Below, in pieces: positions 47,099 to 63,788 of a stretch of DNA of 64,000 bases (positions are counted from its first letter, which is position 1; every line of letters starts with the position of its first letter). The translations under genes were made by a program, and so were the position numbers. A model generated the notes under the pieces. The model ran no database searches and was not told the DNA's origin. It saw nothing but the letters and a program-made list of their open reading frames with translations. Source of the DNA: a virus; the IMG/VR virus record IMGVR_UViG_3300028833_000004, one strand, 5' to 3'.

Positions 47099-48490
47099 TT
47101 AATTTTGCATCAAAATGCAAGAACGATAAGGGTTGTAGACTGCTACGCCCCAATATCCGCTCATAATAAACGATCCGCCAGCTACTTTGGTAGCAACTTC
47201 ACCACCACGTAAACCAACGCCTGTTACGGTATCCTCTACTAATTGTTTACCCTCTAAAGTAAACATTTCGATAGCAGGACGACCACTAGCTTTATCACCA
47301 GTAAGATCAATCAAAATACCATAACCTTTATCTTCGCCATATTCGAGACTCAATGCACGATCAACATGGATAATCAAAGTATTGCCACCAAACGTGTAAG
47401 CGTCGTAAGTAGCACCTGCTTTAATATTACCATTGGTCTGCTTTGACCAAAGATATGCACCGTCTGTCTTATTATCTGCTAAATATTGGCCAAGAACATT
47501 TTGTAAATCCATCCAAAGAATGTCATTAACGACAAGTTGGAAGGTATTACCAGTTGTATTCTTGCATTTTCTTGCCAAAGTTGTCAACATTGTGTTGAAC
47601 AACGATAAATCTAAAGTTGTGTAATTGAACTTGGAAGCAAAGCGATTTATTTGAGGAATGATTCCGTCGCCAGCTATGATCGGTCTACCCATTCTGTCAG
47701 TCAACGTTGAGCGGCCTTTCTCATCCATGGTACCATGTTGCCACAGCATACCTTGGTTACGAGTAGCCATGAAGGTGTCCAAAAGAACTTTCTTTCTTTC
47801 TGGCCATTCAAAAATCTTGCTTTGCCATTTACCCATTTCAGTACCCCTAGAGATCTTTATGTACATTTTCTCAAGAGCTTCGTATCTCGATGAGAAATCA
47901 ATGTCACAACGTATCTCTGTGATGTATTGCTGCATAGACTCGGCATTACTTTGGAATTTAACGAAACCAGTGTCATGCAACTCTGGTTTTGCACTACCGA
48001 TCCAACGAGCCTTCATACCTTTCTTGCAAACAGAAGTATCGAGAACTGCTTCACGATCACCACTCATAAGGCGAACTTGATACTCCCAATAATCGTCTGC
48101 ACGACGTGTCGGAGCTTCTACAACCCAACACATTTGTTTTGAACCATCGATCATGAAAGTTTCCTCAGCCTCAAACTCACGTTTTGTAAAGGCCATGGTA
48201 ATTTCAGAACCGTTCAAACCATTTTGTACTACATCATCTGCAAAATATGCGTACTGAATCTTATTTTGTTCAATATCCCAACTAAATGATAGTGAATCTA
48301 TTTTCTGGTATTTATCACTCTTCTCTTTGAGTTGATAAACATTTCCAACAGCCTCTGTTAAATATGAAGCTGTAAATTGCTCATAAGGTTCCATACGTGA
48401 CACTACACCCAAACGTTCTGGTCGATTGCCTAAGAATTTAGAAAAATCTTCGTCAGTTCTGTTATGTGCCCTTTCTGGTTTCTGAGTCAT
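47099..48490 (-). CDS. Major capsid protein (463 aa), crAss-like HK97-fold type
   Basis: Longest intact ORF in the track, TAG-free, with a TAA stop followed by a hairpin. GC is higher than in neighbouring genes. It sits directly after an acidic scaffold-like gene. The sequence resembles crAss-family MCPs as I remember them; this is not verifiable here. Confidence 0.6.
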   Translation of the reverse strand: MTQKPERAHNRTDEDFSKFLGNRPERLGVVSRMEPYEQFTASYLTEAVGNVYQLKEKSDKYQKIDSLSFSWDIEQNKIQYAYFADDVVQNGLNGSEITMAFTKREFEAEETFMIDGSKQMCWVVEAPTRRADDYWEYQVRLMSGDREAVLDTSVCKKGMKARWIGSAKPELHDTGFVKFQSNAESMQQYITEIRCDIDFSSRYEALEKMYIKISRGTEMGKWQSKIFEWPERKKVLLDTFMATRNQGMLWQHGTMDEKGRSTLTDRMGRPIIAGDGIIPQINRFASKFNYTTLDLSLFNTMLTTLARKCKNTTGNTFQLVVNDILWMDLQNVLGQYLADNKTDGAYLWSKQTNGNIKAGATYDAYTFGGNTLIIHVDRALSLEYGEDKGYGILIDLTGDKASGRPAIEMFTLEGKQLVEDTVTGVGLRGGEVATKVAGGSFIMSGYWGVAVYNPYRSCILMQN

Positions 48491-48513
48491 GAACTAAGCT
48501 ATAACCATAAATA

Positions 48514-50323: not shown

Positions 50324-50453
50324 AAATTACTTTGGTAAATTATCAAATAATTCTTGTATAGTATTTTTCAAGTTATCTATCTCCAGATATTAGTCTAAAC
50401 AGTTTGTTAGACTCTTCTGCTGCAAAATTGACTGTTTGAATCCTGCCTTTGGC

Positions 50454-50993
50454 TTAGACAGATTCACTGCCTTCAAGAGCAGCAATGCGGCTTTCTAAAT
50501 TATGTATAGAACTCCAGAGCCCAGAGTCGTCGTAACTGCCTGGCCCACCACCGCTTTGTTCTAGATTCTGTATGCGACTCTCATGGTCGCTAACAGATGA
50601 TTCCAAGCTACTTATTTGGTCACTTAGAACAGAACTATCAGGTAAAAATTGCCAGGAATCCTCCTACCAAGTATATTTTCTATATCTTAGAAAAATACCA
50701 TAAGTAGCCGCAAATACACTTATAACTAATATAGCATTATCATTCTCTCTATAGACTGTTAAAGTTGCAGGAAATTTTGCATCAGGAGTAAATACAAATT
50801 GGCCAGATTCAAAATTATCTTTTGGTGTAAGTATTACATTATAAATACCTGCGGGTAAATTTTCAAATGGAGTACCTGAATCTGTCCGCTCAATATTTAA
50901 CTCCTCAAGATTATTCATATCAATCTTAGCTAAAATAGTTTTATTTATAGCCTAACCTGCCTAATGTTGATTAATTGAGTAAATTTTGTTCAT
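50454..50993 (-). CDS. Small fibre-like protein (179 aa with TAG as sense) with a C-terminal coiled-coil (..SRIQNLEQSGGGPGSYDDSGLWSSIHNLESRIAALEGSESV)
   Basis: ATG 50991-50993 to TAA 50454-50456. Track ORF 50664-50918 ends at a TAG, and beyond it the frame continues into a plausible trimerisation-type tail. Confidence 0.55.
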
Positions 50994-51042
50994 AATCCAC
51001 AAGTTTTTCTATTTCTTTTTTATCTTATTATAAATTTAAATA

Positions 51043-51894
51043 TTATTCATAACTTTCTACTCCCGGTATAAATCCAGTACATTTATCATATTCAAAAGCA
51101 CAATATTCGTAATCACCACATTTATTACAATCTGGCCTCTTTTTCTCCAAATTAATATCCATACAAGCTTTCATTAATTTAGCTTTATCTGACTGATTGA
51201 CTAATGCCGGAATATCTTTATTTAAACAATGAGAATCATAATATGGTTTTTCAGGATCTACATAAGTATGTGAATCTCCCATACGCTAATCCATAATAAA
51301 TATTTCCCTCAATTCAGGATAATTAATTCCAAATTCTTTAGCAATATCTGCAAACTCACAACAGAAAGTTACTTTTAATCCTAAGAAACAATTCTCCATA
51401 TATTTTGCTAATTCCGCAGTTTTATAATCTGTATATTTAATCCTAAATGTCCCATCTTTAATTTTGGCATACATATTAGCAAGAATATTTAAATCATTTT
51501 TATCTCCGGCTAATATCACAAAGTTAGGATGTGCAGGAGCATGTACTGTAGTTCCATAATATTCTGGAGAAAATACTAAATGAGAGTTATATTTCTCTTT
51601 AAAGTATTCAGATGCCCCTATTGGAATTGTAGATTTAATAACAATAATATTAGCCTTAGTAGCTTTTATTGCTTCTTCTACAACATTTATTTGTACACAA
51701 CCATTTTCATCATTATCTGTAGGAACACATATAAACGCAATATCATATGTTATATCTTTTTTATTAGATACTTCTGGTTTAAAAGGATCAGAAATATCTA
51801 TTGTAAATCCTTTTTTAAGTAAAGGTTTTAAATCATCATAAACATGAGTACCTATATTTCCATACCCAACAATTAATAAATTCATTGTAGTCAT
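51043..51894 (-). CDS. Truncated UDP-glucose/GDP-mannose dehydrogenase-family protein (283 aa, one in-frame TAG) with a Cys-rich C-terminus
   Basis: Track ORFs 51286-51894 and 51043-51282 are in one frame, separated by TAG plus one codon. Rossmann N-terminus LLIVGYGNIG, FICVPT, VIKSTIPIG, SPEYY, TAELAKYMENCFLGLKVTF, then D[TAG]RMG and SHCLNKD (catalytic-Cys motif, C at 51226-51228). The usual C-terminal UDP-binding domain is replaced by CNKCGDYEYCAFEYDKC. Confidence 0.65.
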
Positions 51895-51909
51895 AATTAT
51901 ATATATTTA

Positions 51910-54177
51910 TTATATGTTAATTCCTTGAATATTTGTAAATCGTGACCAATAATTTGCGTTTGCATAATCACTTTCAGATCCAACTGGAACATACAATGGT
52001 GTTGATCTTGGTACATTATACCAAGTTTTTGATCGTATTGTTGGTGGGGTCATTGCTTCACATGTTATGGAGGTCAAACCTGCGCAACCGTAGAAAGCAT
52101 TCTCCTCAATATTTGTCACATTATTACCAATCGTTACAGACTTCAAACCTTTGCAACCTTCGAAAGCGTGCTCTCCGATACTTGTAACGCTATCAGGGAT
52201 AGTTATAGACGTCAAACCGATGCAATCTCGGAAAGCCCAATTTCCGATACTTATTACACCGTTACCAATCGTAACCGAAGTCAAACCTTTGCAACCGTTG
52301 AAGGCCGACAGTCCAATACTTGTGACACTATCTGGAATCGTTACGGTGGTCAAACCTTTGCAACCGGCGAAAACGCACCGTTCAATACTTGTAATGCTAT
52401 TTGGGATCGTTATAGATGTCAACCCAGCGTCATCGAAAGCATACTCTCCAATATTTGTTACACTATCCGGAATTGTTATGGAGGTCAAACCTACGCAATC
52501 CTCGAAAGCATGATTTCCAATACTCGTTACACCGTCAGGAATTACGGTGCTTTGACAACCTGCTATTAATTTATTAGAACTAGTTTCTATAATTGCGTTA
52601 CAATTATCTCGGCTATCATATATTGTATTTTCACTATTCACAATAATAGATGTCAAACCAGTACAGCTCAGGAAAGCATCTTCTCCAATACTGTTTACAC
52701 TATTGCCAATTGTTACTGACATCAGACCACTACAATAAGAGAAGGTATTTTTTCCAATGCTTGTGACGCCGTCGGGGATGACTATGGACGCCAAACTACT
52801 GCAACCATAGAAAGCATAAATTCCAATGCTTGTGACGCTATCGGAAAGGTTTATAGAAGTCAAAGCTTTGCAGTCCTAGAAAGCCCCGCTTCCAATGCTT
52901 GTGACGGCATCGGGAATGGTTATAGAGGTCAAAGCTTTGCAGCCCTCGAAAGCATCACTTCCAATGCTTGTAACGCCATTGCCAAGCGTTACAGAGGTCA
53001 AACTGGTGCACTCATAGAAAGCATTGCTTCCAATGCTTGTGACGGCATCGGGAATGGTTATAGAAGTCAAACTGCTACAATTGCGGAAAGTTTCCTCTTT
53101 TATGCTTGTGAGGGCATTGGAGAGGGTTATGGAAGCCAGACTGCTGCAACCGTTGAAAGCATTAATTCCAATGCTTGTGGCGCCATCGGGAATGATTATA
53201 GAGGTCAATCCGGTGCAACCATAGAAAGCACTTTCTCCAATACTTGTTACACTATTTGGAATTGTGACTGATGTCAGACTGCTACAACTAATGAAAGCAT
53301 ACTCTCCAATACTCGTTACACTATTGCCAATTGTTGCTGAGGCCAGACGGCTGCAATTAGAGAAAGCCCCATATCCAATACTCGTTACACTATTGGGAAT
53401 TGTTACTGAAGTCAGATTGAAACACCCAGAGAAAGCACTATTTCCAATACTTGTTACTCTATTGCCAATTGTGACTGATGTCAGACTGCTGCAACCAGAG
53501 AAAGCATACTCTCCAATACTTTTAACGCTGTTGGGAATAGTGACAGAGGTTAAATCGCATATTGCGAAAGCAGAAGCTCCAATGCTTTTAACGCTATTTG
53601 GAATTTCTATTGAGGTCAAACCGCTACAACCATTGAAAGCCTGATCTCCAATACTGGTGACACTATTAGGAATCTCAATGGAGGTCAGACGGTAACGCAT
53701 ATAGAAAGCTCTATATCCGATGTTTGTAACATCTTCTTTGAATTTGATTACACCTTTTCCAGTATCCGAATCAAATTCATTAGTATCAATTTCTGGTAAT
53801 GAACTTGTTTGAGATGGCTAAATTTTACTCGTTGCTGTATATCTAATTATATCACCTCTTTCTTTAATAACAGCAGCACCATTCTCTACAACTATTTTAC
53901 AATCCTCCTAATTGCACTCTAATAACTGCTGACTCTCTTTAATATAGCAACTAAATGGAACGGATTCAATGATATATTTATCCGCATCATTTAATGTTTC
54001 AAAAATAACATCAACTTTATTAATAATTTCCGCTTGATTATTATTTATAATAACCATTTTATTAGCAATAGAACAGTATAATACCTAATCAGTTTCTTCA
54101 ACGTATCCTACCCAAGGTATATCTTCTATTACATAACCATTTGCTTCTGCAAGTGTTTTAAAATAACTTAAATTCAT
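51910..54177 (-). CDS. BspA-type leucine-rich-repeat (LRR_5-like) adhesin or fibre protein (755 aa with TAG as sense)
   Basis: ATG 54175-54177 to TAA 51910-51912. Track ORFs 51910-52863 and 52876-53700 are joined in frame by a TAG that falls inside a repeat unit (GSGAF*DCKALTSI versus AFEGCKALTSI). About 25 units of about 23 aa follow the pattern xAFxxCxxLTSVTIPxSVTSIG. Confidence 0.75.
52060..53745 (-). repeat. Tandem ~69-nt (23-aa) LRR coding repeats
   Basis: Periodic ..acttgt(g/t)ac(g/a)c.. / ..ccaat(a/g)ct.. strings. Both antisense and alternative frames stay open, which explains plus-strand track ORFs 52151-52513, 52168-52569, 53024-53224 and 53264-53644. Confidence 0.75.
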
Positions 54178-54178
54178 A

Positions 54179-54892
54179 TTAATATACTAAAATTACATCA
54201 TTTCTTTTCTTATACATTATCTATCCAAATGTCTAAAATATAGTACATTCTGTATCTAATTTTACAAGATTATAAGCAGATGTATAATTGCAATAATTCT
54301 TATAAATGTTTCTAACAATAAATTGTTCACTATTCCATTTATTCATAGGTTGTGTTTTATAAAACTCATTAACCTTCTCATAAAATTCAATTAATGCTTC
54401 TTTATAACCAATACAACATCCTGCATTTAAATATCTGAATTTAGATGAGTGCTACCTAACAGGAGTATCTCCAAAATATCCGGGATAATTATTCTTAGAA
54501 GCATTGAATACTATACCAGCATTAAAAGATTTAAATTTCTCAATAAGACTATCCCAATTATCAATTACTACATCATATCCATCCAATATAAGAATATATT
54601 TAGTTTCTATTTCTTTCAATGCTTTTAATATACATTCTATTTTATAAGGATTAGACCACTTTTCTTCTCTAGGAATATAACAATTTATAATTGGTATATT
54701 ATTTTCTTTTAATTGCTAATATAATACGCATTTATTATCATCTGTCCAAATTGATAATATTGTAAGATCGTCTGGAGCCTAAGATAACTTATGACTCCAG
54801 ATGTCCTACATAAAATCATTAAATACTATAGAAGTACTTCCTTGAAAATGCGCTATATTAAACTTTTTATGGCTGCGATTGAGAAATTGCAT
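54179..54892 (-). CDS. Putative DxD glycosyltransferase (237 aa with TAG as sense)
   Basis: ATG 54890-54892 to TAA 54179-54181, one nt before the next ATG. The frame was inspected. YILILDGYDVVI (DxD-like) and RYLNAGCCIGYKEAL resemble the D-x-D and LNsGgfiG pair of lysyl-hydroxylase-type and viral glycosyltransferase domains, as recalled. Confidence 0.5.
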
Positions 54893-57800
54893 TTATTCTA
54901 TCATTTAAGTCATTTAAAGCTGCGGCAATTACAATAGCTGTTTCTGGTGTTAATCCTGATTCTTGAGAACCTAATTGTAATAATAACTATTGTAAAGATT
55001 TACCAGATTGTGGATTAGAACCATCATAATCACCAACTCCTTTTATAAATATACTACCATCTGTTGTAATTTCAAGAGCATTTCTATGATCTCCATCAGA
55101 TTCACCAACACCGACAGAATGAATTGTTTTTAGTTTAGATGATACTGGACGGATTGAGCAACCGAACCTCTTATCAGTAACTATATTATCGGCGTATACC
55201 TCATCAAATTTTCCATATAATATATCAGCATTCGCACCATTACAAGAAGAAGTAAAATAATATAAATATCCTTCCAAATCTTCAAGTGCTTGTCCATTTA
55301 TCAATCCTGCTGCAGGCAAGAAAATATATAAATCAGAATCAGACTTATTTATAAATTTCCACCCATTTACTCCATTAACAGATGTCCATTCATTGTCTGT
55401 ATGTTCAATTAACTCCTCAAAATCCTTTTTACTTGGAATTCTCCAGTTTTCTCCAAGAGTTTTCGCTGCAATATCATCTTCTAATACTAATCTTGTTAAT
55501 TCGTCTGGGTCTGGTGTAGAACCTCCCCACTAATCAGAATCTGTACAATATTTTGTTAATGTACTATTTGTTCCATTACACCATTTATAAGTACTCCAAT
55601 CATAGGTTCCCTTAGTCTCTGTTTCGCCCCACGCATAGTAATCACCATAATCTTCTGGATTTTGAGCGCCAATATTACAAGTTGCCCATAAATTGCCAGA
55701 AGGCAAATCAAGATCTACATACTCGACAGAAGTGTTTATATGTACATCGTTGGATTTATTACATCTACCTTCAGCATGTTCTGCTTTATGAGTAGCTTTT
55801 GTATACCATCCTTCTGCGTGGGAATATTTTTCTTTTGCTTGTGTGTTAAAACCTTCTGAATGTGCACCACGATTTAATGCTCTAGTGTGCTCTCCTTCAG
55901 CATGTGCATATGTTCCTTCAGTATATGTTTCTCCACCTTCTGCATGTGCACCATATCCATAGTATTCTAAACGTTGAACTTGGTATTCTCTATTTGGATA
56001 TGCGTTTATATATTGTTGTAGATTATCATAATTAAAAACTTCTGGATAATCACCACTACTTCTATTTTCATGTCCTCCAGAATCACCCCAGTAGTCTATA
56101 TTATACCTAGGAGAAATTTCCAGGTATGGATAGTTCTCTGAGTAAACTATAAAATTATGAAATCTAACTCCTTTCTAATGGGGGGCCCAAAAAAGCTATA
56201 CACTAGAAAGTTTTCTTTCATCAAATGAATGAATTAAAGAATTATAATCCCCGCTAATTAACTATAGTGTTACATGATTATTTGAAGAATTATAAGAACT
56301 TAATTTTACAACAGCATTTCTATCAGTATATACTTCTTTGCTCTAAATAAACGTTTTCCATCCTTCTGCATGAGAATATTTCGAATCAGTTTGTGTCTCA
56401 TATCCTTCTGTATGAGAACCTTCAGAATGATCATTTACAAAAGTATTTATACCTTCGGCATGAGCACCAATACTTAAAGATTTAGAATCAACACCTTCGG
56501 CATGAGCGGCGTCTCCATCTGCTCTAGTGTTTATACCTTCTGAGTGTGATGCAGTTTGAGCTGCAGCTGTATCTTTACCTTCAGCGTGTGCTGCTACCTA
56601 CCATTCTTCAGAATGGTCAGAAGAACTTACATCTTCAAAATTACCTTCTGTAGAAGTATTATATCCTTCAGCATGAGAATATGCCCCACGCGCATTACAG
56701 CGAGTTCCCTCAGCATGAGATCCTATTCCAGAAGCTTGTGAATCTTCTCCTTCTGCGTGTGACCAATCTCCTTGTGCAGAACTTGATTTTCCTTCTCCGT
56801 GAGCAAAATTTCCAGATGCTTTTGTATCGATGCCTTCTGTGTGTGAATATTCACCTTCGACTTGAGTTTGCTTACCTTCAGCATGTGAACCAAATGTATA
56901 AGCAGCAGTGCCATAACCTTCCGCATGTGAGTTACCACCAAACGCTCTTGTCTTAAATCCTTCAGAGTGTGCATTTGTGCCAGTTGCTTGTGTTCTTTCT
57001 CCTTCTGCATGCGAATGTAAACCAGAAGCATCTGATAAGTATCCTTCAGCGTGAGAATCTTTGCCAGTAGCGCTAGTTTTGATATAGATAGCCTCGTTGA
57101 TAGGCAGTGTTACTTCTCTATCAATTGTTATTTCTTCTCCATATTGATCTATTAAGGTAACAATGCCAATTATACTTCCATCAGCTTTATATAAAGGTCT
57201 GCCGATCCAGCCATTTACTTTATTTTCTTTTTCAACATCGTACACATTTGGAACATCGGCAGAATCACTTAGTGACATGTCAAAATCACTAAAAAAGTCA
57301 GATCCCGCTAAAAAATTTTTAGCCGAATCAGATGCGCCGAAATCAGAATCAATTGATGATTGATGATATATTCTAATGATGTTAGAGTTGTCTACTGAGT
57401 TAAAAGTTCTAAACAATGTTATATGTCCACCTTCGCCTTCTGCATGAGATGCTGTACCAAATGATGTTGTATATTGTCCTTCTGCATGCGAGGAATTTCC
57501 AGTTGCACTAGTAAATTCCCCTTCTGAATGAGAGTAATCACCATCTGCTTCTGTATCTTTACCCTCTGCATGAGAGGCCTCCCCGTTTGTAACCGTGAAC
57601 TAACCTCCTGCATGTGAATAGTTACCTGATGCTGTTGTACCGTAACCTTCTGCGTGTGAACCTTCACCAGATGCTGTTGTACTGTTACCTTCTGCATGAG
57701 AACAGTATTCAGAAGCTGTTGTATCGTTACCTTCTGCGTGCGAACCTTCACCAGATGCTGTTGTACCGGTACCCTCTGCGTGTGAATAGTCATCTGATGC

Positions 57801-59324
57801 TGTTGTAGATTCACCTTCTGCATGAGAACAGTATTCAGAAGCTGTTGTATTGCTACCTTCTGCATGTGAACAATCACCTGATGCTATTGTGCTTGCTCCT
57901 TCAGCATGTGAATAGTTACCTGAAGCTGTAGTACTTTCACCTTCTGCATGTGAAGGACTACCTGATGCTGTTGTACCGTTACCTTCTGCATGAGAATCAT
58001 TACCCGATGCTGTCGTTTCTTCTCCTTCTGCATGTGAATAGTAACCTGATGCTGTTGTAGTTTTTCCTTCTGCATGAGAACAGTAACCTGATGCTGTCGT
58101 TTCTTCTCCTTCTGCGTGTGAGTAGTCCTCTGATGCTGTTGTGTTGTAACCTTCCGCGTGAGAATCATTACCTGAAGCTGTAGTACTTTCACCTTCTGCA
58201 TGTGAATAGTTACCTGATGCTGTTGTACCGTAACCTTCTGCGTGTGAACTTTCACCAGATGCTGTCGTTTCTTCTCCTTCTGCATGTGAAGCGTCACCTT
58301 TTGATCCACATACACGTTTCCAATAATAGGTCACTCCATCAGTTAATGAACCAGTATCAATATTGAAATAATCTCCATCATAATTACTTGTATAATAATA
58401 GCGACATATAGTGATTTTAGAAACTAGTTGAGTGCATTCACTATCGCTATAAATCCAGCCTTGAGACCCATAACCGTCATCTATATTATCACTATGATCA
58501 CAATACGTAAAAGTAATTCCGGTTTTAGCTTTAATTTTGTTTTGTTCTTCCGTTCCGATAACAGAACATACAAAGGATACGATTTCGTCTGAAATTAATC
58601 CTTGTCCTTCTGCATGTGAATAGTTACCTGAAGCTGTCGTATTATATCCTTCTGCTACAGCACTTAGTCCCGTAGCCGTGTTAAAGAGTTCTTGTCCACC
58701 GTCTTCTTCATTCTGTCTATATTCGGTTGCAAATGAACCAGTCGTACTATCATATATATACCCTTTAGCAGAAATCTCAGTAGTTCCATCCTAATTGTCT
58801 GTAATAGTTATATTATTACCAGTAACTAGATTATGTGACACTTCATTATCTTCAATCTAAATACCTTGGCCAGATGTATAAGGTGCCCCAGCATTAACTG
58901 CAGATATTGTAAATCGTGGATTATCAGTAGATTGTGTACCCTCAACTGGAGTTATCTTAATATTTTCTCCAACTTCATAAGTTGTATCCTTAGCATTAAG
59001 GAAATTATTAGAATCTACCCTTAGATTATTATTAACATTAATTGCGATGAATTTTTCAAATTCATACTAAGTGTCCTAAACATCTATACCTGTTCCTCCA
59101 ATATAATTAGTTTGAAACTCTCCTAATCCATAAATCTTTCCCCGGGCCCAAATAACTTTTAAACCGTCCACATAATTTTGACCAAATGCTCTATCGTTCT
59201 AACAGGTTATAAATGCGATACTATTTTCATCAATGATGTTAGTATCCTTAATATTTTGGATACTAACATCATTATTATTAAAAATAGTATGTAATCCTAT
59301 TATATTACAAAATTTCTTTGCCAT
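54867..59324 (-). CDS. Tail fibre/adhesin (1,485 aa with TAG as sense): about 45 SHAEG-type 14-aa beta-roll repeats (YadA/Hep_Hag-like) plus a C-terminal lectin-like domain (Fib_succ_major/DUF1566-like)
   Basis: ATG 59322-59324 to TAA 54867-54869. The frame was inspected. Track ORFs 57600-58334, 56598-57416 and 54987-55319 are same-frame fragments. C-terminal LPSGNLWATCNIGA..GDYYAWGE..WRIPSKKDFEEL..IFLPAAG..RFGCSIRPV fits the Bacteroidota paralogous-domain pattern. Confidence 0.7.
55750..57070 (-). repeat. Three further, more degenerate blocks of the same 14-aa SH(A/S/T)EG repeat
   Basis: Blocks at about 56640-57070, 56350-56600 and 55750-55965 (e.g. GNSHAEGYGTAAYTFGSHAEGKQTQVEGEYSHTEG). Confidence 0.7.
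57425..58300 (-). repeat. Near-perfect tandem array of 42-nt units encoding xxTTASGxxSHAEG (about 21 copies)
   Basis: Read directly from the translation of track ORF 57600-58334 and its continuation. All three frames and the antisense strand lack stops here. Confidence 0.85.
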
Positions 59325-59336
59325 AATTAATCATTT

Positions 59337-62300
59337 TTAGATAAGAACCCCGTCATATCTCACATGCCATGAGGCACTGCTTGTATTTCCAAAAATCAAT
59401 ATTGGCTATGAACCATTGATAATAATATCTGCTTTTAACAAATTCTACCATGTAGCCGGAGTTCCCTGATAATAAATGGTAGTTTTATCATCAGAGCCTG
59501 TTTTTGTATAAATTGCACTATCTCTAATCTATTTTAAATTTGGACCTAAATATAACTCATAATTAATTCCATTAATTCCATTAAGGGAAGTATATCTATA
59601 TAGATCCTCAATATTTTGGAATTTAATACTTGTCAATTGTGGACAATTATTAAGACAATCTTCAAAATTGTATTTACATCCAACCTCCACAGATGTTAAC
59701 TGCTAGCAATTTTCAAATACTCGAGCAGATAAAACATCAACATTATTAAAACCACCTACAGAAGTAATCTATGTTCCAGAAAATGCCTAATCATCTACAA
59801 ATCTAACAGAATCTGGAATATTTAAATCTCCACCTAGTCCAGAATTTTTAAATGCACAAAATCCAATGCTCTCAATAGTACTGAAATTTGAATCATTAAA
59901 ATTCTATAAGGTGCTGTTATTAAATGTAAATGGTGGGATTTTATTTAATCCCCACTTAATCTCTGTTAAATTTCTGCAATTCTAAAAACATCCAGCTCCA
60001 ATATCTAAAACATATTCATCAAAGCCATAAACATCAGATATTGCAGAATTATATAATACATAATTTCCAAGTGTTACTGGTGCTATAATTGTACAACTCT
60101 ATAATAATGATCTTTCTGCCAAAGCATAATCAGCAACATTATCAACATCATATCCAATTATAACACGCCGGGCTTGAATTGGAATCTACCCCTTTTCTAG
60201 AGTCCTGTTCTAAATATCAACAGAAATCCACCCATTACCATTATAATATTGTGTTGGATATGAAAATTTAGGAACAAATGTCGTATCCTACAATATAGGC
60301 TCAGAAATATCAGGTGACCAACCTAAAAACTTATATCCACCGCCATATGTAGAAGCTGGTGTGGGCTATTGTCCTGTATATATTACATTTCTATTATAAA
60401 GAACCTGTTTTATTTCTATTGGAGAACCTCCTCCATTTAAAAAGGTAACGGTTCTTTTCCAATTGGTTGGAATATGTGAATCATCAAATATCCACTAAAG
60501 TTCTGAATTAGTAAAATCTCCTTCAGTAGTTTCTACTCCTTTTACCCAATCTGTAAATGTTCCCCAAGTTCTAAATCCGACAGATAATTTATTTAATCTA
60601 GAGCATCCAGAAAACATTTCAGTTAATGCATCGTCAGAAGCAGTAGTTGCTAAAATGGTAGCTTGTGAGAGCCGCTTATTATTTTTAAACATCTGGACAT
60701 AAGCACCAGTAGGAATATTTGTTGCTGGAAGGATTACCTCAGATGTTAAGAATAATGATGAACCACTAAAAGTTTCCCTATAACAATCCTAAGTTAAAGT
60801 TGTTGCAGGAAGTATTACTGATCCAAAAATATGCTCATCTTTAAAGAGCCCCTAAAATGCACCTTTATGAAATATTATTGTTGCATCTGGATTCTATCCC
60901 TATAAACTCATAATAGAACCCTCAACACCCATAAGTGTAAAACTACCAGTCGCAATCGGTTTAAAGTGTATATTAGGATAATCTGAGTAAATTTTTCCAG
61001 ATACCTCTATATAATTAGAGACTGCTATCTTTGACCCAGATGTAAATACTTGCCAATCATTTTCAGAAGTAGTTCTATAAAAGATTGTTGCGCGACTCTC
61101 ATCATAGGTACATTGTATATATATATTTCCCTGATTTCCATCCTTATAAAATTTTAAGAATGAATATTGTGGTTCTGGAATATCTTCTATAGGAGTCTTT
61201 GTATATATAGCTTTATATATAATATCCTGAGTTACATAGGGATTAAATGATGGAGACCAACCACTAAAAACATAAGAATTCTAAGAATCATTAGGTCTGG
61301 TGGGATTAGCCGGAGCTGTTACATTTGTGCCAAAATCATACGAACCAGTTTGAATAGATGAATTATCCCAATCTACAAAGGTTACTCTATATTGTTTAGA
61401 TACTTTTGAAAACTATGCTGTATATACATAATCCTAATTATTTACAACATCAATTTTCTTATCCCAACCACTGAACGTGTATTCATATTGTGAATCCGGA
61501 ACATGTGTTGGAGTTTTCCCCTTATACACGGGTAGATTCCCGTTATCATAATAAGAACTCTTTAGAACAGTTCCATCATAATTTTTAAAGGTAACTTTCC
61601 AACGATCTGTATTATACTGAGCCTCATATACTGCATCTCTATATGCTGGAACGATAGCTGGAAACCACTCTAGCAGTTCATAGCCTGGAATATCATGTCC
61701 AGAAGGTGGTATTGGAAGCGTTCCGTCCCCAACTTCTATTGTTACTTCGTCTAAAGGACTAAATTTAAAAGTAATCTAATGACCCTAAGAATACCAATCA
61801 TCGGAAGTAGAAACACCTGTATAGTCAACTGTGTTGTCTGGGATAATATCTATAGAATTATCAGCTGAAGATATAGACATTTGGCAATCACATCCACCAC
61901 CACTACTAGAACCAGTTCCACAGCACGCTATATTAGTTACAGCCGAACCATCTGAATAAAATAATTTATTCGTAATGGAATTATGCATTAAATGGCTACC
62001 AGTAAAGATATCTAATGGTTTGGTGTTAGTTAGTTCCCATGACTCTGTATCCTTATTATATCTATATTCTTCATTACTTGGAAATTTCCAAATTGGGCTG
62101 TCCTAATCTTTAATTATTTTAAAAACTCCACCAGGTGTTGAATCCGATAATAGTGCAAATCCAGTATTCGAACTAGAAAAGAGATCAAAGGCCTCTTTTA
62201 CAAGATTATTATTAGAGAAATCTTTTATATGGACCTAACCTTGTAGGTCTATATAAGACACTTTATAATCTTTAAAGTTAATTATGACCGGTCGATCTTC

Positions 62301-63788
62301 ATTAATTCTTATATTAACGTCTGAAGAATTAGTATCATGTACGTCAGAAAATGCTAATCTAAGAGAATTCTATTCTTTTATTATATGTACCTAAATTGAT
62401 GAGCCGTTATTCACATTATAATTATCATAAGATTCATCAAATGGAACTATCTTTAAGCCATCTTCCTAAGTAATTAATGTTCCGCCTAGATAATATTTAT
62501 CAGAGTCTGGATAGGTTTCCTAATCATTTTTCGCCCAAGCAATTGGAATAACATCGCAATTACGTGAATCTACTTCAAAAGTTGGTTCATTCTGGATTCC
62601 ATCAAATTTTACTGCTGATTTATAATATCCGGCACCACTCTCAAAATTATATTTAGTGCCATCATATATAGCACCTCCGCAAGCTGCAAAAATATTAAAA
62701 GGTTTATCAAATTTTAAAACAGTAACACCAACTGTTTGATCCCCCCATCCAAATGGATATGGGAAACGAGTCTCCTTGCGATAATTATTCATCTAAACGG
62801 CCAACATATATAGAGTATTTTCATCCTCATATACTATTGGACATATCATTAGAGCATCAGTCCTGGACGATTGATTAGCCTCCTATATAACTCCCGCACT
62901 TATAATTATATCCAAATCACCAAACTGATTTGGTTCAGATTTAAAAAATGTTGAGGTAGCTGTATTTGCAAGCTGCTCTATATAAGAATAATCTCCACCA
63001 TCTGGACACGTAGTTTCAGAATTACTTAATTCTAACTGCTTTGTCTCTTGATTATATGTTAATGTGGAATTTAAATTCGTTTTAGTTTTAGTCTAAGCAT
63101 TATAGTATGCCCATGTAGTAAATCCTGTTCCAACATTCTCGGCTTCCCAAGTAGATTCACCTGCAAAGTGCGAGATGTCTGGATTTAAGGGCGTATTAAA
63201 TTCAGAATTTTTTGCCACAAATGCCTAACTAATTTCTCCACCATAACTTCCGCCATTTTTAGGTATGGTGGGTTTCAAACTTCCCAATTCATCATCATAG
63301 GCCCATAAAACATGAGGTGTCCAAGTATTTACAATACTAGAAATAGTGAATGGAGTTGATAATTTTTCTTTTACTAATTCAAAGTCTGCATCATTATCTA
63401 CAACATAAGCCCCGGTAAGCATTAAGTAATCAGCTACTAAATCATCTCCATTAAAATATATAAGCTTATGCTTCTCAGTTGGAATACTATTGGTAGTTAA
63501 TGAAATTATTTTTATATTTCCGTAAGAATCAGTAATATGTAAATCATCCCCAATTCTATCAAAGTTATAAGTAGTATTTGTATCCTAATTATTACAATTA
63601 AAAATCTGCCCCTATGTCCAAATATATTTTCCTAAAGCTGGATCATCAATAAAAAGAACCACATCGTGATCTAATCCAGTTTTTGGGTCTATGTCTGAAA
63701 GATTGTACGGAATTGGCGAGTTGTTTACATTAGCTGTAAACACACTCGCAAATCCGTCAGTATATGCAAACTTTACTTTATTATTCAT
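59337..63788 (-). CDS. Tail fibre/adhesin (1,483 aa with TAG as sense) with Listeria-Bacteroides (Flg_new-like) repeats and BspA-type LRR units
   Basis: ATG 63786-63788 (ATGA overlap) to TAA 59337-59339. The frame was inspected. Track ORFs 63225-63422, 62520-62792, 61785-61988 and 60495-60692 are same-frame fragments. Units such as YRVTFVDWDNSSIQTGSYDFGTNVTAPANPTRPNDS*NSYVFSGWSP (about 60300-61780). LRR-like IGAGCF*NCRNLTEI.. lies at about 59400-60300. Confidence 0.65.

What the first reader, a model, noticed from the sequence alone, without database searches (positions are those of the whole stretch)
51043..54892. Sugar-nucleotide dehydrogenase and glycosyltransferase bracketing an LRR adhesin inside the fibre module
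A truncated UGDH-family enzyme retains the catalytic Cys motif SHCLNKD but has a CxxC-rich tail in place of the UDP-binding domain. A DxD glycosyltransferase-like protein lies on the other side of the 755-aa BspA-type LRR protein. All three sit between the two large fibres and the capsid genes. Carbohydrate-active enzymes in the receptor-binding module suggest two options: glycosylation of the phage's own fibres or adhesin, or modification of the host capsule or O-antigen (superinfection exclusion, receptor masking). I do not know of a described system with this arrangement.
Basis: partly seen in the sequence, partly recalled or inferred. Interest (0 to 1): 0.7.

Follow-up and report, generated by a model that had tools for sequence, protein, structure and literature searches.

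The report
Phage tail-fibre glycosylation enzyme pair
A gut or rumen crAss-like phage carries, inside its tail-fibre genes, a collagen-glucosyltransferase-like enzyme and a shortened sugar dehydrogenase; this pair recurs, side by side or fused, in many unrelated phages and most likely puts sugars on the phage's own fibres, though no experiment has tested that.

Summary
On the minus strand lie three genes:
- a 237-aa LH3/PLOD-type GT-A glycosyltransferase (54179-54892);
- a 755-aa BspA-type LRR protein (51910-54177);
- a 283-aa UDP-glucose-dehydrogenase derivative (51043-51894). It keeps every catalytic residue but lacks the UDP-binding domain.

The "trio" is not the unit. In close relatives the LRR gene is absent, moved, or replaced between the two enzyme genes. 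Two links are conserved.
- **GT and fibres.** The GT gene sits directly behind, often overlapping, tail-fibre, tailspike or LRR genes in about ten lineages, and is sometimes fused to fibre N-termini.
- **Short dehydrogenase and GT-A enzymes.** The ~250-aa dehydrogenase family is adjacent to GT-A transferases (GT_PLOD, GT2, GT8, GT92, TAGT). It is fused to GT92 or GT2 in at least 12 protein clusters.

Best reading (about 0.5): a late-expressed cassette that tailors a sugar, probably to a uronic acid, and attaches it to virion fibre or adhesin proteins. Host-glycan modification remains a serious rival. I found no functional description of this pair. I rate it a new variant of a known kind.

The parts
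54179..54892 (-). LH3/PLOD-type GT-A glycosyltransferase, 237 aa, with 6 in-frame TAG codons. DxxD motif at codons 54572-54583; Glu189/Gln190 at 54323-54328. Its start overlaps the 3' end of the upstream fibre gene by 26 nt.
   Evidence: Pfam GT_PLOD E=5e-13. A family profile hits Mimivirus R699 (E=1e-8) and the human LH3 GT domain (E=1e-6). The AF2 model of a 91%-identical homologue has pLDDT 93.5, and its top Foldseek hits are R699 and LH3. Codons were checked.
51043..51894 (-). Short UGDH-derived NAD-dependent dehydrogenase, 283 aa. It has the Rossmann and central domains only; the catalytic Cys223 codon is at 51226-51228. One in-frame TAG at 51286-51288.
   Evidence: Pfam PF00984 E=4.6e-15 and PF03721 E=2e-6, no PF03720. 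PHROG 9148 E=1e-29. Alignment to 7kws and 3phl. Invariant residues. AF2 model plus Foldseek gives UGDHs with query TM-score about 0.73.
51046..51135 (-). C-terminal 30-aa tail of the dehydrogenase with four Cys (C-x2-C-x6-C-x6-C). Restricted to the crAss-like subgroup.
   Evidence: Present only in the closest relatives (>=79% identity) and in P0029. AF2 pLDDT <50 over residues 255-283.
51910..54177 (-). 755-aa BspA-type LRR protein. A conserved N-terminal module (about 54058-54177) is followed by variable LRR_5 repeats. It is exchangeable cargo lying between the two enzyme genes.
   Evidence: LRR_5 E=6e-194. The N-terminal motif YFKTLxEAxGYIIxDIPWVGYVEE is shared with an LRR protein in L006 and a protein of a different repeat type in L007. 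Its position varies among relatives.
54867..59324 (-). 1485-aa fibre with many SHAEG (YadA-head-like) repeats, immediately upstream of the GT and overlapping it. Candidate acceptor.
   Evidence: YadA_head E=3e-8. Homologues lie directly upstream of the GT gene in L006, L094, L095, L106 and L120.
59337..63788 (-). 1483-aa fibre with a C-terminal LRR_5 region.
   Evidence: LRR_5 E=8e-19.
50454..50993 (-). 179-aa protein downstream of the dehydrogenase with a coiled-coil C-terminus. It has a weak resemblance to tail-needle or fibre proteins. It shows that the structural module continues on both sides of the enzyme genes.
   Evidence: Weak Phage_tail_NK hit, E=0.0017, below the cut-off. ORF.
47099..48508 (-). 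crAss-type major capsid protein. It marks the phage type and the late module.
   Evidence: Crass_capsid E=3e-14.

Best explanation
The region encodes a late-expressed, cytoplasmic, two-enzyme glycosylation cassette embedded in the tail-fibre module of a TAG-recoded crAss-like phage. The 237-aa protein is a Mn-dependent GT-A transferase of the LH3/R699/ESAG3 kind. The 283-aa protein is a UGDH-derived NAD-dependent C6 dehydrogenase that has lost its own UDP-binding domain and works with, probably bound to, the GT. Together they convert a host UDP-hexose into a uronic-acid-type residue and attach it to a macromolecule made at the same time. The most likely acceptors are the phage's own fibre or adhesin proteins: the YadA-like fibre whose gene overlaps the GT start, and/or the LRR proteins.

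Shown here: the family assignments, conserved catalytic residues, absence of the UDP-binding domain, absence of hydrophobic segments, recurrent adjacency and fusion of the dehydrogenase with GT-A enzymes, and recurrent placement of the GT next to or fused with fibre proteins.

Inferred: that the two proteins form a complex, that the product is a uronic acid, that the acceptor is a virion protein, and that expression is late. The timing rests on TAG recoding being confined to late genes, which is my own knowledge of recoded phages and was not tested here.
For: 1. Identity of the enzymes.

2. The catalytic machinery is intact.
- Dehydrogenase: GxGxxG, KST88, PE111, K164, N168, D202-x-R204, C223 and K226-D227 are invariant or nearly so across 43-57 family members.
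- GT: D104xxD107, NAG156-158, S188-E-Q190, R194 and F219 are invariant.

3. GT plus dehydrogenase adjacency, in the same order and often with overlapping ORFs, occurs in divergent lineages where the proteins are only 28-36% (GT) and 48-54% (dehydrogenase) identical to the window's.
- crAss-like contigs L006, L007 and L003.
- A contig as long as a jumbo-phage genome, L011-L014.
- A Firmicutes prophage, L015.
- Two IMG/VR groups, L022 and L027.
- L172 and L128.
- Two phages carry both genes about 25 kb apart.

4. Fusions.
- Dehydrogenase-GT92 in 10 protein clusters and dehydrogenase-GT2 in 2 more.
- This GT family fused to NDP-sugar epimerase/dehydratase domains (P0156, P0161).

5. The immediate neighbours of the short dehydrogenase in about 54 viral loci include GT2, GT8, GT92, GT32-like, TAGT and GT_PLOD.

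6. The link between GT and fibres.
- The gene directly upstream of, or flanking, the GT is one of: a homologue of the window fibre (L006, L094, L095, L106, L120); an LRR_5 protein (L010, L100, L104, L094); a Phage_fiber_2 fibre (L027); a pectate-lyase tailspike (L121); a Gp53-like fibre (L008); or a beta-helix protein.
- Two clusters (P0196, P0185) carry the GT domain after a long N-terminal region. In P0196 that region has a weak Mtd_N (tail-fibre N-terminal) match. I judged P0185 fibre-like by eye.

7. The characterised relatives LH3 and R699 glycosylate collagen, a protein; ESAG3 glucosylates Ser of VSG and is co-transcribed with its substrate. ESAG3 has the same Glu/Gln pair as the phage family (PMC6082870 from its abstract; PMC12279948; bioRxiv 10.64898/2026.01.27.701950).

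8. Neither enzyme has a hydrophobic segment: maximum Kyte-Doolittle score over 19 residues is below 1.0.

9. All three genes need TAG read-through, as do the structural genes around them.
Against: - No acceptor is identified. No window protein has a collagen-like G-x-y run, and no lysyl hydroxylase is present, so the canonical LH3 acceptor is absent.
- The upstream fibres belong to several unrelated types, so no common acceptor motif is evident.
- Position next to receptor-binding genes is also typical of genes that modify the host receptor.
- Many family members lie outside structural modules, next to PhoH, metallophosphatases, DNA methylases, TAGT or IMP dehydrogenase.
- The closest IMG/VR relatives of the GT (L094, L095) have no dehydrogenase within 6 kb, so the pair is not obligatory.
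- In about 24 Paenibacillus species the short dehydrogenase sits in a chromosomal operon with a GT2. That operon looks like cell-envelope glycan synthesis.
- Known LH3-type enzymes use UDP-glucose, and UDP-glucuronate inhibits LH3. This sits awkwardly with a simple 'make UDP-GlcA, then transfer it' scheme.
- The GT ends about 18 residues after the FQ motif and lacks the region that holds the third metal ligand of LH3, His253.
Confidence: 0.5

Rival explanations
1. Host envelope glycan modification. The cassette adds a sugar, possibly a uronic acid, to the host's capsule, LPS or teichoic-acid precursors on the cytoplasmic face. This alters the receptor that the neighbouring fibres recognise, giving superinfection exclusion or protecting progeny from adsorbing to debris.
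For: - In prophage L015 the pair lies between the tail fibre (H_lectin) and the holin/amidase/recombinase genes. By my own knowledge, that is a typical site for lysogenic-conversion genes.
- In Paenibacillus chromosomes the short dehydrogenase is in an operon with a GT2, a phosphodiesterase-like enzyme, large unannotated proteins and a Cu_amine_oxidN1 protein.
- By my own knowledge, seroconverting phages often place receptor-modifying genes beside the tailspike gene.
Against: - The window phage is crAss-like, and both genes need TAG read-through like the virion genes. That argues for late synthesis, when changing the cell surface has little time to act.
- No flippase, bactoprenol transferase or membrane-spanning partner is present, and both proteins are soluble.
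- GT fusions are to fibre N-terminal domains, not to membrane domains.
- The characterised LH3-type enzymes act on proteins.
Confidence: 0.22
2. DNA modification. The GT glycosylates a modified base in phage DNA, and the dehydrogenase supplies or oxidises the sugar, as in the glucuronate-bearing DNA of Bacillus phage SP-15.
For: - Two short-dehydrogenase loci have a TET-associated glycosyltransferase (TAGT) as immediate neighbour. Others have DNA methylases, PhoH, a nucleoside deoxyribosyltransferase or a ParB-like nuclease nearby.
- SP-15 DNA carries phosphoglucuronate, and that phage encodes a UGDH (PMC5977210).
Against: - In the window lineage the genes are inside the fibre-to-capsid block and overlap a fibre gene.
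- No hydroxymethylase or TET/JBP gene is in the window, although early genes lie outside it.
- This GT family's neighbours are overwhelmingly fibres and tailspikes.
Confidence: 0.07
3. Two unrelated accessory genes. The dehydrogenase is an ordinary metabolic helper that boosts the UDP-glucuronate pool, or a decaying fragment, and its nearness to the GT in this phage has no functional meaning.
For: - Each family occurs without the other in many loci.
- The fibre module is a hotspot for gene insertion, as the mobile LRR gene shows.
Against: - Adjacency recurs in at least 8 lineages at 28-54% identity, always in the order GT then dehydrogenase.
- Covalent fusions of the short dehydrogenase with GT-A domains occur in 12 clusters.
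- Catalytic residues are strictly conserved over more than 560 clusters, which excludes decay.
- Loss of the UDP-binding domain argues against a stand-alone UGDH.
Confidence: 0.08

Closest known systems
Human LH3/PLOD3 glycosyltransferase domain and Mimivirus R699 (collagen galactosylhydroxylysyl glucosyltransferases)
   Same: - Best sequence-profile and fold matches.
- GT-A fold, DxxD metal motif, the 'YLN(A/S)G' loop, an acidic-Gln pair and the 'IFQ' strand all align.
- R699 shows that a virus can carry a stand-alone enzyme of this kind (PMC12279948).
   Different: - The phage protein is shorter (237 aa) and ends before the segment that carries LH3 His253.
- It has Glu-Gln where LH3 has Asp-Gln.
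- No collagen-like acceptor, lysyl hydroxylase or galactosyltransferase is present.
- Sequence identity is only 15-19%.
Trypanosoma brucei ESAG3, an LH3-like O-glucosyltransferase of variant surface glycoproteins (bioRxiv 10.64898/2026.01.27.701950)
   Same: - LH3-like GT-A with a DxxD motif and a Glu/Gln pair.
- It glucosylates Ser directly on a surface protein.
- Its gene is co-transcribed with its substrate gene, as the phage GT gene is coupled to fibre genes.
   Different: - It is eukaryotic and forms an octadecamer.
- It keeps the C-terminal His ligand.
- It is strictly specific for UDP-glucose and has no dehydrogenase partner.
- I made no direct sequence comparison; the resemblance rests on the paper's description.
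Canonical UDP-glucose 6-dehydrogenases (e.g. PDB 3gg2, 1dlj, 7kws)
   Same: - NAD-binding Rossmann domain and central helical domain.
- Catalytic Cys, Lys, Asn and Asp, the Thr/Ser, and the inter-subunit Arg are all conserved.
   Different: - The whole C-terminal UDP-binding domain (PF03720, about 120-150 aa) is missing.
- The motif is SHC instead of GGxC.
- It scores 118.8 bits against the TIGR03026 cut-off of 189.8.
Cluster EC Microbacterium phages (Quhwah, Honeyfin): adjacent 'glycosyltransferase' and 'UDP-glucose dehydrogenase' genes
   Same: The same short dehydrogenase family: Honeyfin gp85 is 260 aa, 29% identical, with SHCFDKD. It lies directly downstream of a GT gene.
   Different: - The partner GT shows no BLASTP similarity to the window GT; I did not run a Pfam scan of it.
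- The genes lie in the right arm among DNA-binding, ParB-like and ATPase genes, not among fibres.
- They are only listed, not studied (PMC7302621).
Virion glycosylation of mycobacteriophages (Che8 and relatives; Freeman et al. 2023, as cited in PMC11256854)
   Same: Phage-encoded glycosyltransferases decorate the phage's own structural proteins.
   Different: - The acceptors there are capsid proteins, as stated in PMC11256854.
- No LH3-type GT or short dehydrogenase is known to be involved.
- I could not read the primary paper.
Seroconversion cassettes of temperate phages (gtrABC type)
   Same: Sugar-transfer genes placed beside receptor-binding genes (my own knowledge).
   Different: Those systems use membrane proteins: a flippase, a bactoprenol glucosyltransferase and a polytopic GT. 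Here both proteins are soluble and no such partners are present.

Membership tests
UDP-glucose/GDP-mannose dehydrogenase family (Pfam PF03721 + PF00984 + PF03720; NCBIfam TIGR03026) | N-terminal NAD-binding Rossmann domain with a GxGxxG motif | tested here: met
   PF03721 E=2e-6, 27.9 bits against a cut-off of 27. G10-Y-G12-N-I-G15 is invariant. The fold matches UGDHs.
UDP-glucose/GDP-mannose dehydrogenase family (Pfam PF03721 + PF00984 + PF03720; NCBIfam TIGR03026) | Central domain with the catalytic Cys in a C-x-x-K-D motif, plus catalytic Lys, Asn, Asp and Thr/Glu | tested here: met
   PF00984 E=4.6e-15. C223 aligns with the catalytic Cys of 7kws and 3phl. S88, E111, K164, N168, K226 and D227 are invariant, and C223 is present in at least 90% of members.
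UDP-glucose/GDP-mannose dehydrogenase family (Pfam PF03721 + PF00984 + PF03720; NCBIfam TIGR03026) | C-terminal UDP-binding domain (PF03720) | tested here: not met
   No PF03720 hit. The protein matches positions 76-298 of the 413-position TIGR03026 model and then ends. All 120 listed relatives are 173-332 aa and none carries PF03720.
UDP-glucose/GDP-mannose dehydrogenase family (Pfam PF03721 + PF00984 + PF03720; NCBIfam TIGR03026) | Whole-protein score above the curated family cut-off | tested here: not met
   TIGR03026 scores 118.8 bits against a cut-off of 189.8. All equivalog models score far below their cut-offs.
UDP-glucose/GDP-mannose dehydrogenase family (Pfam PF03721 + PF00984 + PF03720; NCBIfam TIGR03026) | Two-fold NAD-dependent oxidation of a nucleotide-sugar C6 hydroxyl | not testable with these tools
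   Needs an enzyme assay.
LH3/PLOD-type GT-A glycosyltransferases (Pfam PF25342 GT_PLOD) | Profile match above the gathering score, and a GT-A fold | tested here: met
   49.2 bits against a cut-off of 27. The AF2 model of a 91%-identical homologue has pLDDT 93.5. Top PDB matches are R699 and the LH3 GT domain, E about 1e-7, TM-score 0.55-0.62.
LH3/PLOD-type GT-A glycosyltransferases (Pfam PF25342 GT_PLOD) | DxxD metal-binding motif | tested here: met
   D104-G-Y-D107 is invariant in 29 sequences and aligns with the DxYD of R699 and LH3.
LH3/PLOD-type GT-A glycosyltransferases (Pfam PF25342 GT_PLOD) | Acidic-Gln catalytic pair (LH3 D191/Q192; ESAG3 E244/Q245) | tested here: met
   S188-E189-Q190 is invariant and aligns with 'DDQ' of R699 and LH3.
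LH3/PLOD-type GT-A glycosyltransferases (Pfam PF25342 GT_PLOD) | Third metal ligand, a C-terminal His (LH3 H253) | tested here: inconclusive
   The protein ends about 18 residues after the FQ motif, with no conserved His there. A nearly invariant H15 near the N-terminus might substitute, but I had no model coordinates to check this.
LH3/PLOD-type GT-A glycosyltransferases (Pfam PF25342 GT_PLOD) | Acceptor is galactosyl-hydroxylysine of a collagen-like protein | tested here: not met
   No run of five or more G-x-y triplets in any of the 27 window proteins. No 2OG oxygenase was seen among the annotated neighbours.
BspA-type leucine-rich repeat proteins (Pfam LRR_5) | Tandem LRR_5 repeats | tested here: met
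   LRR_5 E=6e-194 in six stretches.
gtrABC-type seroconversion cassette | Membrane-embedded flippase, bactoprenol glucosyltransferase and serotype-specific polytopic GT | tested here: not met
   Maximum 19-residue hydropathy is 0.94 for the GT and 0.91 for the dehydrogenase. No such Pfam families occur in the region.
Known anti-phage defence systems (PADLOC) | Match to a defence-system protein model | tested here: not met
   No PADLOC family matches either enzyme at E<=0.01.

The most novel reading that the evidence does not exclude
The short dehydrogenase is a new enzyme type that has handed nucleotide binding to its glycosyltransferase partner. One possibility is a composite active site, in which the GT-A domain holds UDP-glucose while the dehydrogenase oxidises C6, and the uronic acid is transferred without release. 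The other is that it oxidises glucose only after the GT has attached it to the acceptor, a polymer-level glucose-to-glucuronate conversion with no known precedent. In this phage the product would be acidic glycans on tail fibres and LRR adhesins of an abundant gut or rumen phage group, a charge or glycan shield that affects receptor binding, mucus adherence or antibody recognition.
Probability: 0.25. Interest if true: 0.8.

Novelty: new variant of a known kind. Interest (0 to 1): 0.6.

Why it matters
Phage-encoded glycosylation of virions has been shown so far mainly for a few mycobacteriophages and for giant viruses. This finding points to a large, unstudied family of LH3-like transferases: 776 clusters at 50% identity with E<=1e-10. 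The family sits in the receptor-binding modules of gut, rumen and soil phages, including crAss-like phages.

If fibres or adhesins are glycosylated, that would affect three things:
- host-range prediction from fibre sequence;
- the behaviour of phages in mucus and towards antibodies;
- the production of therapeutic phages in surrogate hosts.

The short dehydrogenase is also an enzymological puzzle. It keeps the full UGDH catalytic apparatus, lacks the domain that binds the nucleotide, and is always partnered or fused with a GT-A enzyme. That gives a directly testable hypothesis about composite or post-transfer sugar oxidation.

Tried and rejected
- **Nucleotide search.** Megablast of 50400-55000 against GenBank phages found nothing.
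- **GT searches that gave little.**
  - tblastn against phages found one weak hit, Roseobacter phage CRP-6.
  - A single-sequence scan of IMG/VR found none; only the alignment-based scan worked.
  - PHROGs, NCBIfam and PADLOC have no family for the GT.
- **Honeyfin partner GT.** It shows no BLASTP similarity to the window GT. The Pfam scan that included it failed, so what is conserved there is the dehydrogenase-plus-GT principle.
- **Structure prediction.** I modelled homologues that are 91% (GT) and 89% (dehydrogenase) identical instead.
- **Collagen-type acceptor.** Rejected: no G-x-y runs in any window protein.
- **Defence-system reading.** Rejected.
- **Pseudogene or decay reading of the 'truncated' enzyme.** Rejected because of family-wide conservation.
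- **Residues that separate dehydrogenase-paired GTs from unpaired GTs.** Only position 81 stood out: Asn in 12 of 15 paired against 7 of 27 unpaired, Fisher p=0.001. This is not corrected for relatedness, so it is suggestive only.
- **Suppressor tRNA.** None found in the window.
- **Literature.** The primary paper on mycobacteriophage virion glycosylation is not held. Searches for a described crAss-like UGDH or GT system found nothing relevant.

Full report
**Observation**

Under the standard code the stretch 51043-54892 holds only fragments on the minus strand. Translating with each stop codon marked showed that every interruption is a TAG, and that TAA or TGA close the reading frames.

With TAG read as a sense codon the window resolves into 27 consecutive minus-strand genes. 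These include giant ORFs of 3685, 2796 and 1544 aa, two fibres of about 1480 aa, and a crAss-type capsid gene. In these ORFs TAG occurs 464 times in frame, against 354 CAA and 151 CAG, and no ORF ends in TAG. Gln220 of the glycosyltransferase lies in an 'IFQ' motif that is nearly invariant in homologues from standard-code phages, and it is encoded by TAG at 54233-54235. So TAG is glutamine.

- GT, 54179-54892, 237 aa;
- LRR protein, 51910-54177, 755 aa;
- dehydrogenase, 51043-51894, 283 aa.

They are tightly packed. The GT start overlaps the end of the 1485-aa fibre gene by 26 nt. The GT and LRR genes are 1 nt apart. The LRR and dehydrogenase genes are 15 nt apart.

**What the proteins are**

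*The glycosyltransferase.*
- It matches Pfam GT_PLOD, the glycosyltransferase domain of collagen lysyl hydroxylases, at E=5e-13.
- A profile of 29 family members finds only Mimivirus R699 (E=1e-8) and human LH3 (E=1e-6) among solved structures. The DxxD, YLN(A/S)G, acidic-Gln and IFQ segments all align.
- An AlphaFold model of a 91%-identical homologue is confident (pLDDT 93.5). It matches R699 and the LH3 GT domain best, followed by other retaining GT-A enzymes. The chlorovirus capsid glycosyltransferase A64R is at rank 45.
- Among predicted viral structures, the nearest are 'PLOD1-3-like GT domain' proteins of giant viruses.

*The dehydrogenase.*
- It matches the N-terminal and central domains of the UDP-glucose/GDP-mannose dehydrogenase family but not the C-terminal UDP-binding domain.
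- Its SHCLNKD cysteine aligns with the catalytic Cys of solved UGDHs. The catalytic Lys, Asn, Asp and Ser/Thr, the Glu of the 'PE' motif and the Arg of 'DxRxG' are conserved across the family.
- The model of an 89%-identical homologue superposes on UGDHs over these two domains, with a query TM-score of about 0.73.
- The Cys-rich tail (C-x2-C-x6-C-x6-C) occurs only in the crAss-like subgroup and is predicted with low confidence. More than 560 relatives simply end near residue 250. So it is a lineage-specific addition, not a replacement for the lost domain.

*Other points.* The LRR protein is a BspA-type LRR_5 protein. Neither enzyme has a hydrophobic segment or a defence-system match.

**The trio is not a unit**

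- In L006, the closest relative with context, the order is YadA-like fibre, GT, dehydrogenase, and only then an LRR protein.
- In L007 a 277-aa protein of a different repeat type lies between the enzymes.
- In L003, a crAss-like contig with 41% G+C, the order is GT, dehydrogenase, scaffold-like protein, capsid.

The window LRR protein, the L006 LRR protein and the L007 protein share an N-terminal module (YFKTLxEAxGYIIxDIPWVGYVEE). It looks like a common docking domain carrying exchangeable binding domains. The LRR gene is therefore mobile cargo of the fibre module.

**The enzyme pair is a unit**

GT followed by the short dehydrogenase recurs far outside crAss-like phages:
- in a contig as long as a jumbo-phage genome, with overlapping ORFs (L011-L014);
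- in a Firmicutes prophage, between an H_lectin fibre and the lysis genes (L015);
- in two groups of IMG/VR contigs (L022 and L027 groups);
- in MAG contigs L172 and L128.

In these the proteins are only 28-36% (GT) and 48-54% (dehydrogenase) identical to the window's. Two phages carry both genes about 25 kb apart.

The link is not obligatory. Most of the 62 dehydrogenase clusters I examined have no GT_PLOD-type neighbour. The closest IMG/VR relatives of the GT lack a dehydrogenase within 6 kb.

But the dehydrogenase's other neighbours are again glycosyltransferases: GT2, GT8, GT92, GT32-like and TAGT. They also include methyltransferases, an epimerase and portal genes.

Fusions settle the point.
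- The short dehydrogenase is fused to a GT92 domain in ten protein clusters and to a GT2 domain in two more. It occurs in both domain orders, as in L021 and L048.
- The GT family itself is fused to NDP-sugar epimerase/dehydratase domains in P0156 and P0161.

In about 24 Paenibacillus species the short dehydrogenase closes a conserved chromosomal operon that includes a GT2.

So this dehydrogenase is a general partner of GT-A transferases, and the GT is a general partner of sugar-tailoring enzymes.

**The GT belongs with fibres**

Across the loci recovered with the GT profile, the gene just upstream of, or flanking, the GT is one of:
- a homologue of the window's YadA-like fibre (L006, L094, L095, L106, L120; the L106 protein carries a Peptidase_S74 chaperone domain);
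- an LRR_5 protein, often on both sides (L010, L100, L104, L094);
- a Phage_fiber_2 fibre (L027);
- a pectate-lyase tailspike (L121);
- a Gp53-like fibre (L008);
- a beta-helix protein.

Two clusters have the GT domain at the C-terminus of a longer protein. In P0196 the N-terminus has a weak match to the Mtd N-terminal domain. I judged P0185 fibre-like by eye only.

Exceptions exist, with PhoH, IMP dehydrogenase or a metallophosphatase as neighbours. The family is large: 2128 clusters at 50% identity with E<=1e-3, and 776 with E<=1e-10.

**Mechanism**

LH3 and R699 glucosylate collagen, a protein (PMC6082870; PMC12279948). ESAG3 O-glucosylates serines of trypanosome surface glycoproteins, is co-transcribed with them, and has the same Glu/Gln pair as the phage family.

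Three lines of evidence point the same way: the coupling of the GT to fibre genes, its fusion to longer proteins of which P0196 has a weak fibre N-terminal match, and the need for TAG read-through that it shares with the virion genes. From these I infer a late, cytoplasmic cassette that glycosylates the phage's own fibre or adhesin proteins, with the dehydrogenase shaping the sugar into a uronic acid. I put this at about 0.5.

The steps that are shown are family membership, conserved catalytic residues, the missing domain, adjacency and fusion. The steps that are inferred are the acceptor, the product, complex formation and timing.

How a UGDH without its UDP-binding domain works is open. It may use the nucleotide site of its GT-A partner. 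In the dehydrogenase-GT92 fusions the GT-A domain follows the central domain, the position the lost domain holds in canonical UGDHs. Alternatively it may oxidise glucose after transfer.
- UDP-glucuronate inhibits LH3, and ESAG3 is strictly specific for UDP-glucose. This slightly favours oxidation after transfer.
- The epimerase/dehydratase fusions favour action on the nucleotide sugar.
- A weak co-variation was seen. GTs next to a dehydrogenase mostly have Asn at position 81, in a loop near the donor site (12 of 15 against 7 of 27, p=0.001, not corrected for relatedness). In the four-paralogue array of L128 only the copy beside the dehydrogenase has it.

**Rivals**

*Host-glycan modification (0.22).* It is supported by the prophage context and the Paenibacillus operon. 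Against it are late recoded expression in a crAss-like phage, the absence of membrane partners, and the protein substrates of characterised relatives.

*DNA glycosylation (0.07).* It is suggested by TAGT, methylase and nucleotide-metabolism neighbours in some loci and by the SP-15 precedent. It fits the window's fibre-embedded genes poorly.

*Chance neighbours or a decayed gene (0.08).* The recurrence, the fusions and the conservation argue against this.

**Novelty**

I found no functional description of the pair. Cluster EC Microbacterium phages list a glycosyltransferase and a 'UDP-glucose dehydrogenase' of this short type side by side without comment. PHROG 9148 names the family.

Phage glycosyltransferases and virion glycosylation are known kinds. 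What is new is an LH3-type transferase family tied to tail-fibre modules, and a domain-deleted UGDH that is partnered or fused with GT-A enzymes. I rate it a new variant of a known kind, interest 0.6.

Noticed in passing
window 1-64000 (all 27 minus-strand ORFs): TAG is used as a sense codon throughout: 464 in-frame TAG, more than CAA (354) or CAG (151), and every ORF ends in TAA or TGA. No tRNA gene, and so no suppressor tRNA, lies in the window.
   Followed up: partly
window 54058-54177 (LRR protein residues 1-40; a second similar stretch near residues 60-90): A conserved N-terminal module (YFKTLxEAxGYIIxDIPWVGYVEE) is shared with an LRR protein in L006 (from 10806) and a 277-aa protein of a different repeat type in L007 (10714-11547). 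It looks like a common docking domain carrying exchangeable binding domains.
   Followed up: partly
window 54867-55000 (C-terminus of the 1485-aa fibre); L006 6061-9294; L007 9289-10020: Otherwise different proteins upstream of the GT gene end in the same motif, (V/I)IAAALNDLNDR(I/V), just before the overlapping GT start. This may be a recombination boundary or an interaction motif.
   Followed up: no
L021 6001-7686; L048 5005-6747; proteins P0289-P0299, P0396, P0397: Natural fusion proteins join the short UGDH-like dehydrogenase to a GT92 or GT2 glycosyltransferase domain, in both domain orders.
   Followed up: partly
proteins P0196, P0185, P0156, P0161: The phage GT family occurs fused to a tail-fibre-like N-terminal region (weak Mtd_N match in P0196; P0185 judged by eye). 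It also occurs fused to NAD-dependent NDP-sugar epimerase/dehydratase domains.
   Followed up: partly
L140 246-7774 and about 23 other Paenibacillus loci (L141, L144-L149 and others): A conserved chromosomal operon ends in the short dehydrogenase. Its genes are: phosphodiesterase/sulfatase-like, GT2, 508-aa and 360-aa unknowns, a Cu_amine_oxidN1 protein, an FTR1 permease, then the short UGDH.
   Followed up: partly
L010 1428-3224; L100 2877-5933; L104 153-920: LRR_5 proteins directly upstream of the GT gene end in Gly/Ser-rich tails (for example PPSSGGGGGSSSGGSE). These are possible O-glycosylation sites.
   Followed up: no
L015 2650-3567; L022 4579-5280; L029 4748-5293; L121 3381-5903: Proteins upstream of the GT in Firmicutes-type phages share a C-terminal motif (YxELxNNKxYNxxY), including at the end of a pectate-lyase tailspike.
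   Followed up: no
L101-L105 (6001-9912); L128 (1599-6989); L009; L121; L008: Tandem arrays of two to four paralogous GT_PLOD-type genes. In L128 only the copy next to the dehydrogenase has Asn at the position equivalent to window GT residue 81.
   Followed up: partly
window 55000-55700 (C-terminal part of the 1485-aa fibre): By eye, the segment 'NLWATCNIGA...YYAWGE...WRIPSKKDFEELI...FLPAAG' resembles the Fibrobacter/Bacteroidetes 'major paralogous' lipoprotein-type domain. Pfam reported nothing there at E<=0.001.
   Followed up: no
L002 10929-12554: Next to the dehydrogenase in one relative lies a 541-aa protein with seven repeats of a 'KYDYSKVEY...IICPxHGEFWQ...C.KC' zinc-ribbon-like unit. 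It is probably a homing-endonuclease-type mobile gene.
   Followed up: no
window 52067-53644, + strand: Long + strand ORFs opposite the LRR gene (up to 272 aa with TAG as sense) are by-products of the repeat structure, not genes.
   Followed up: no
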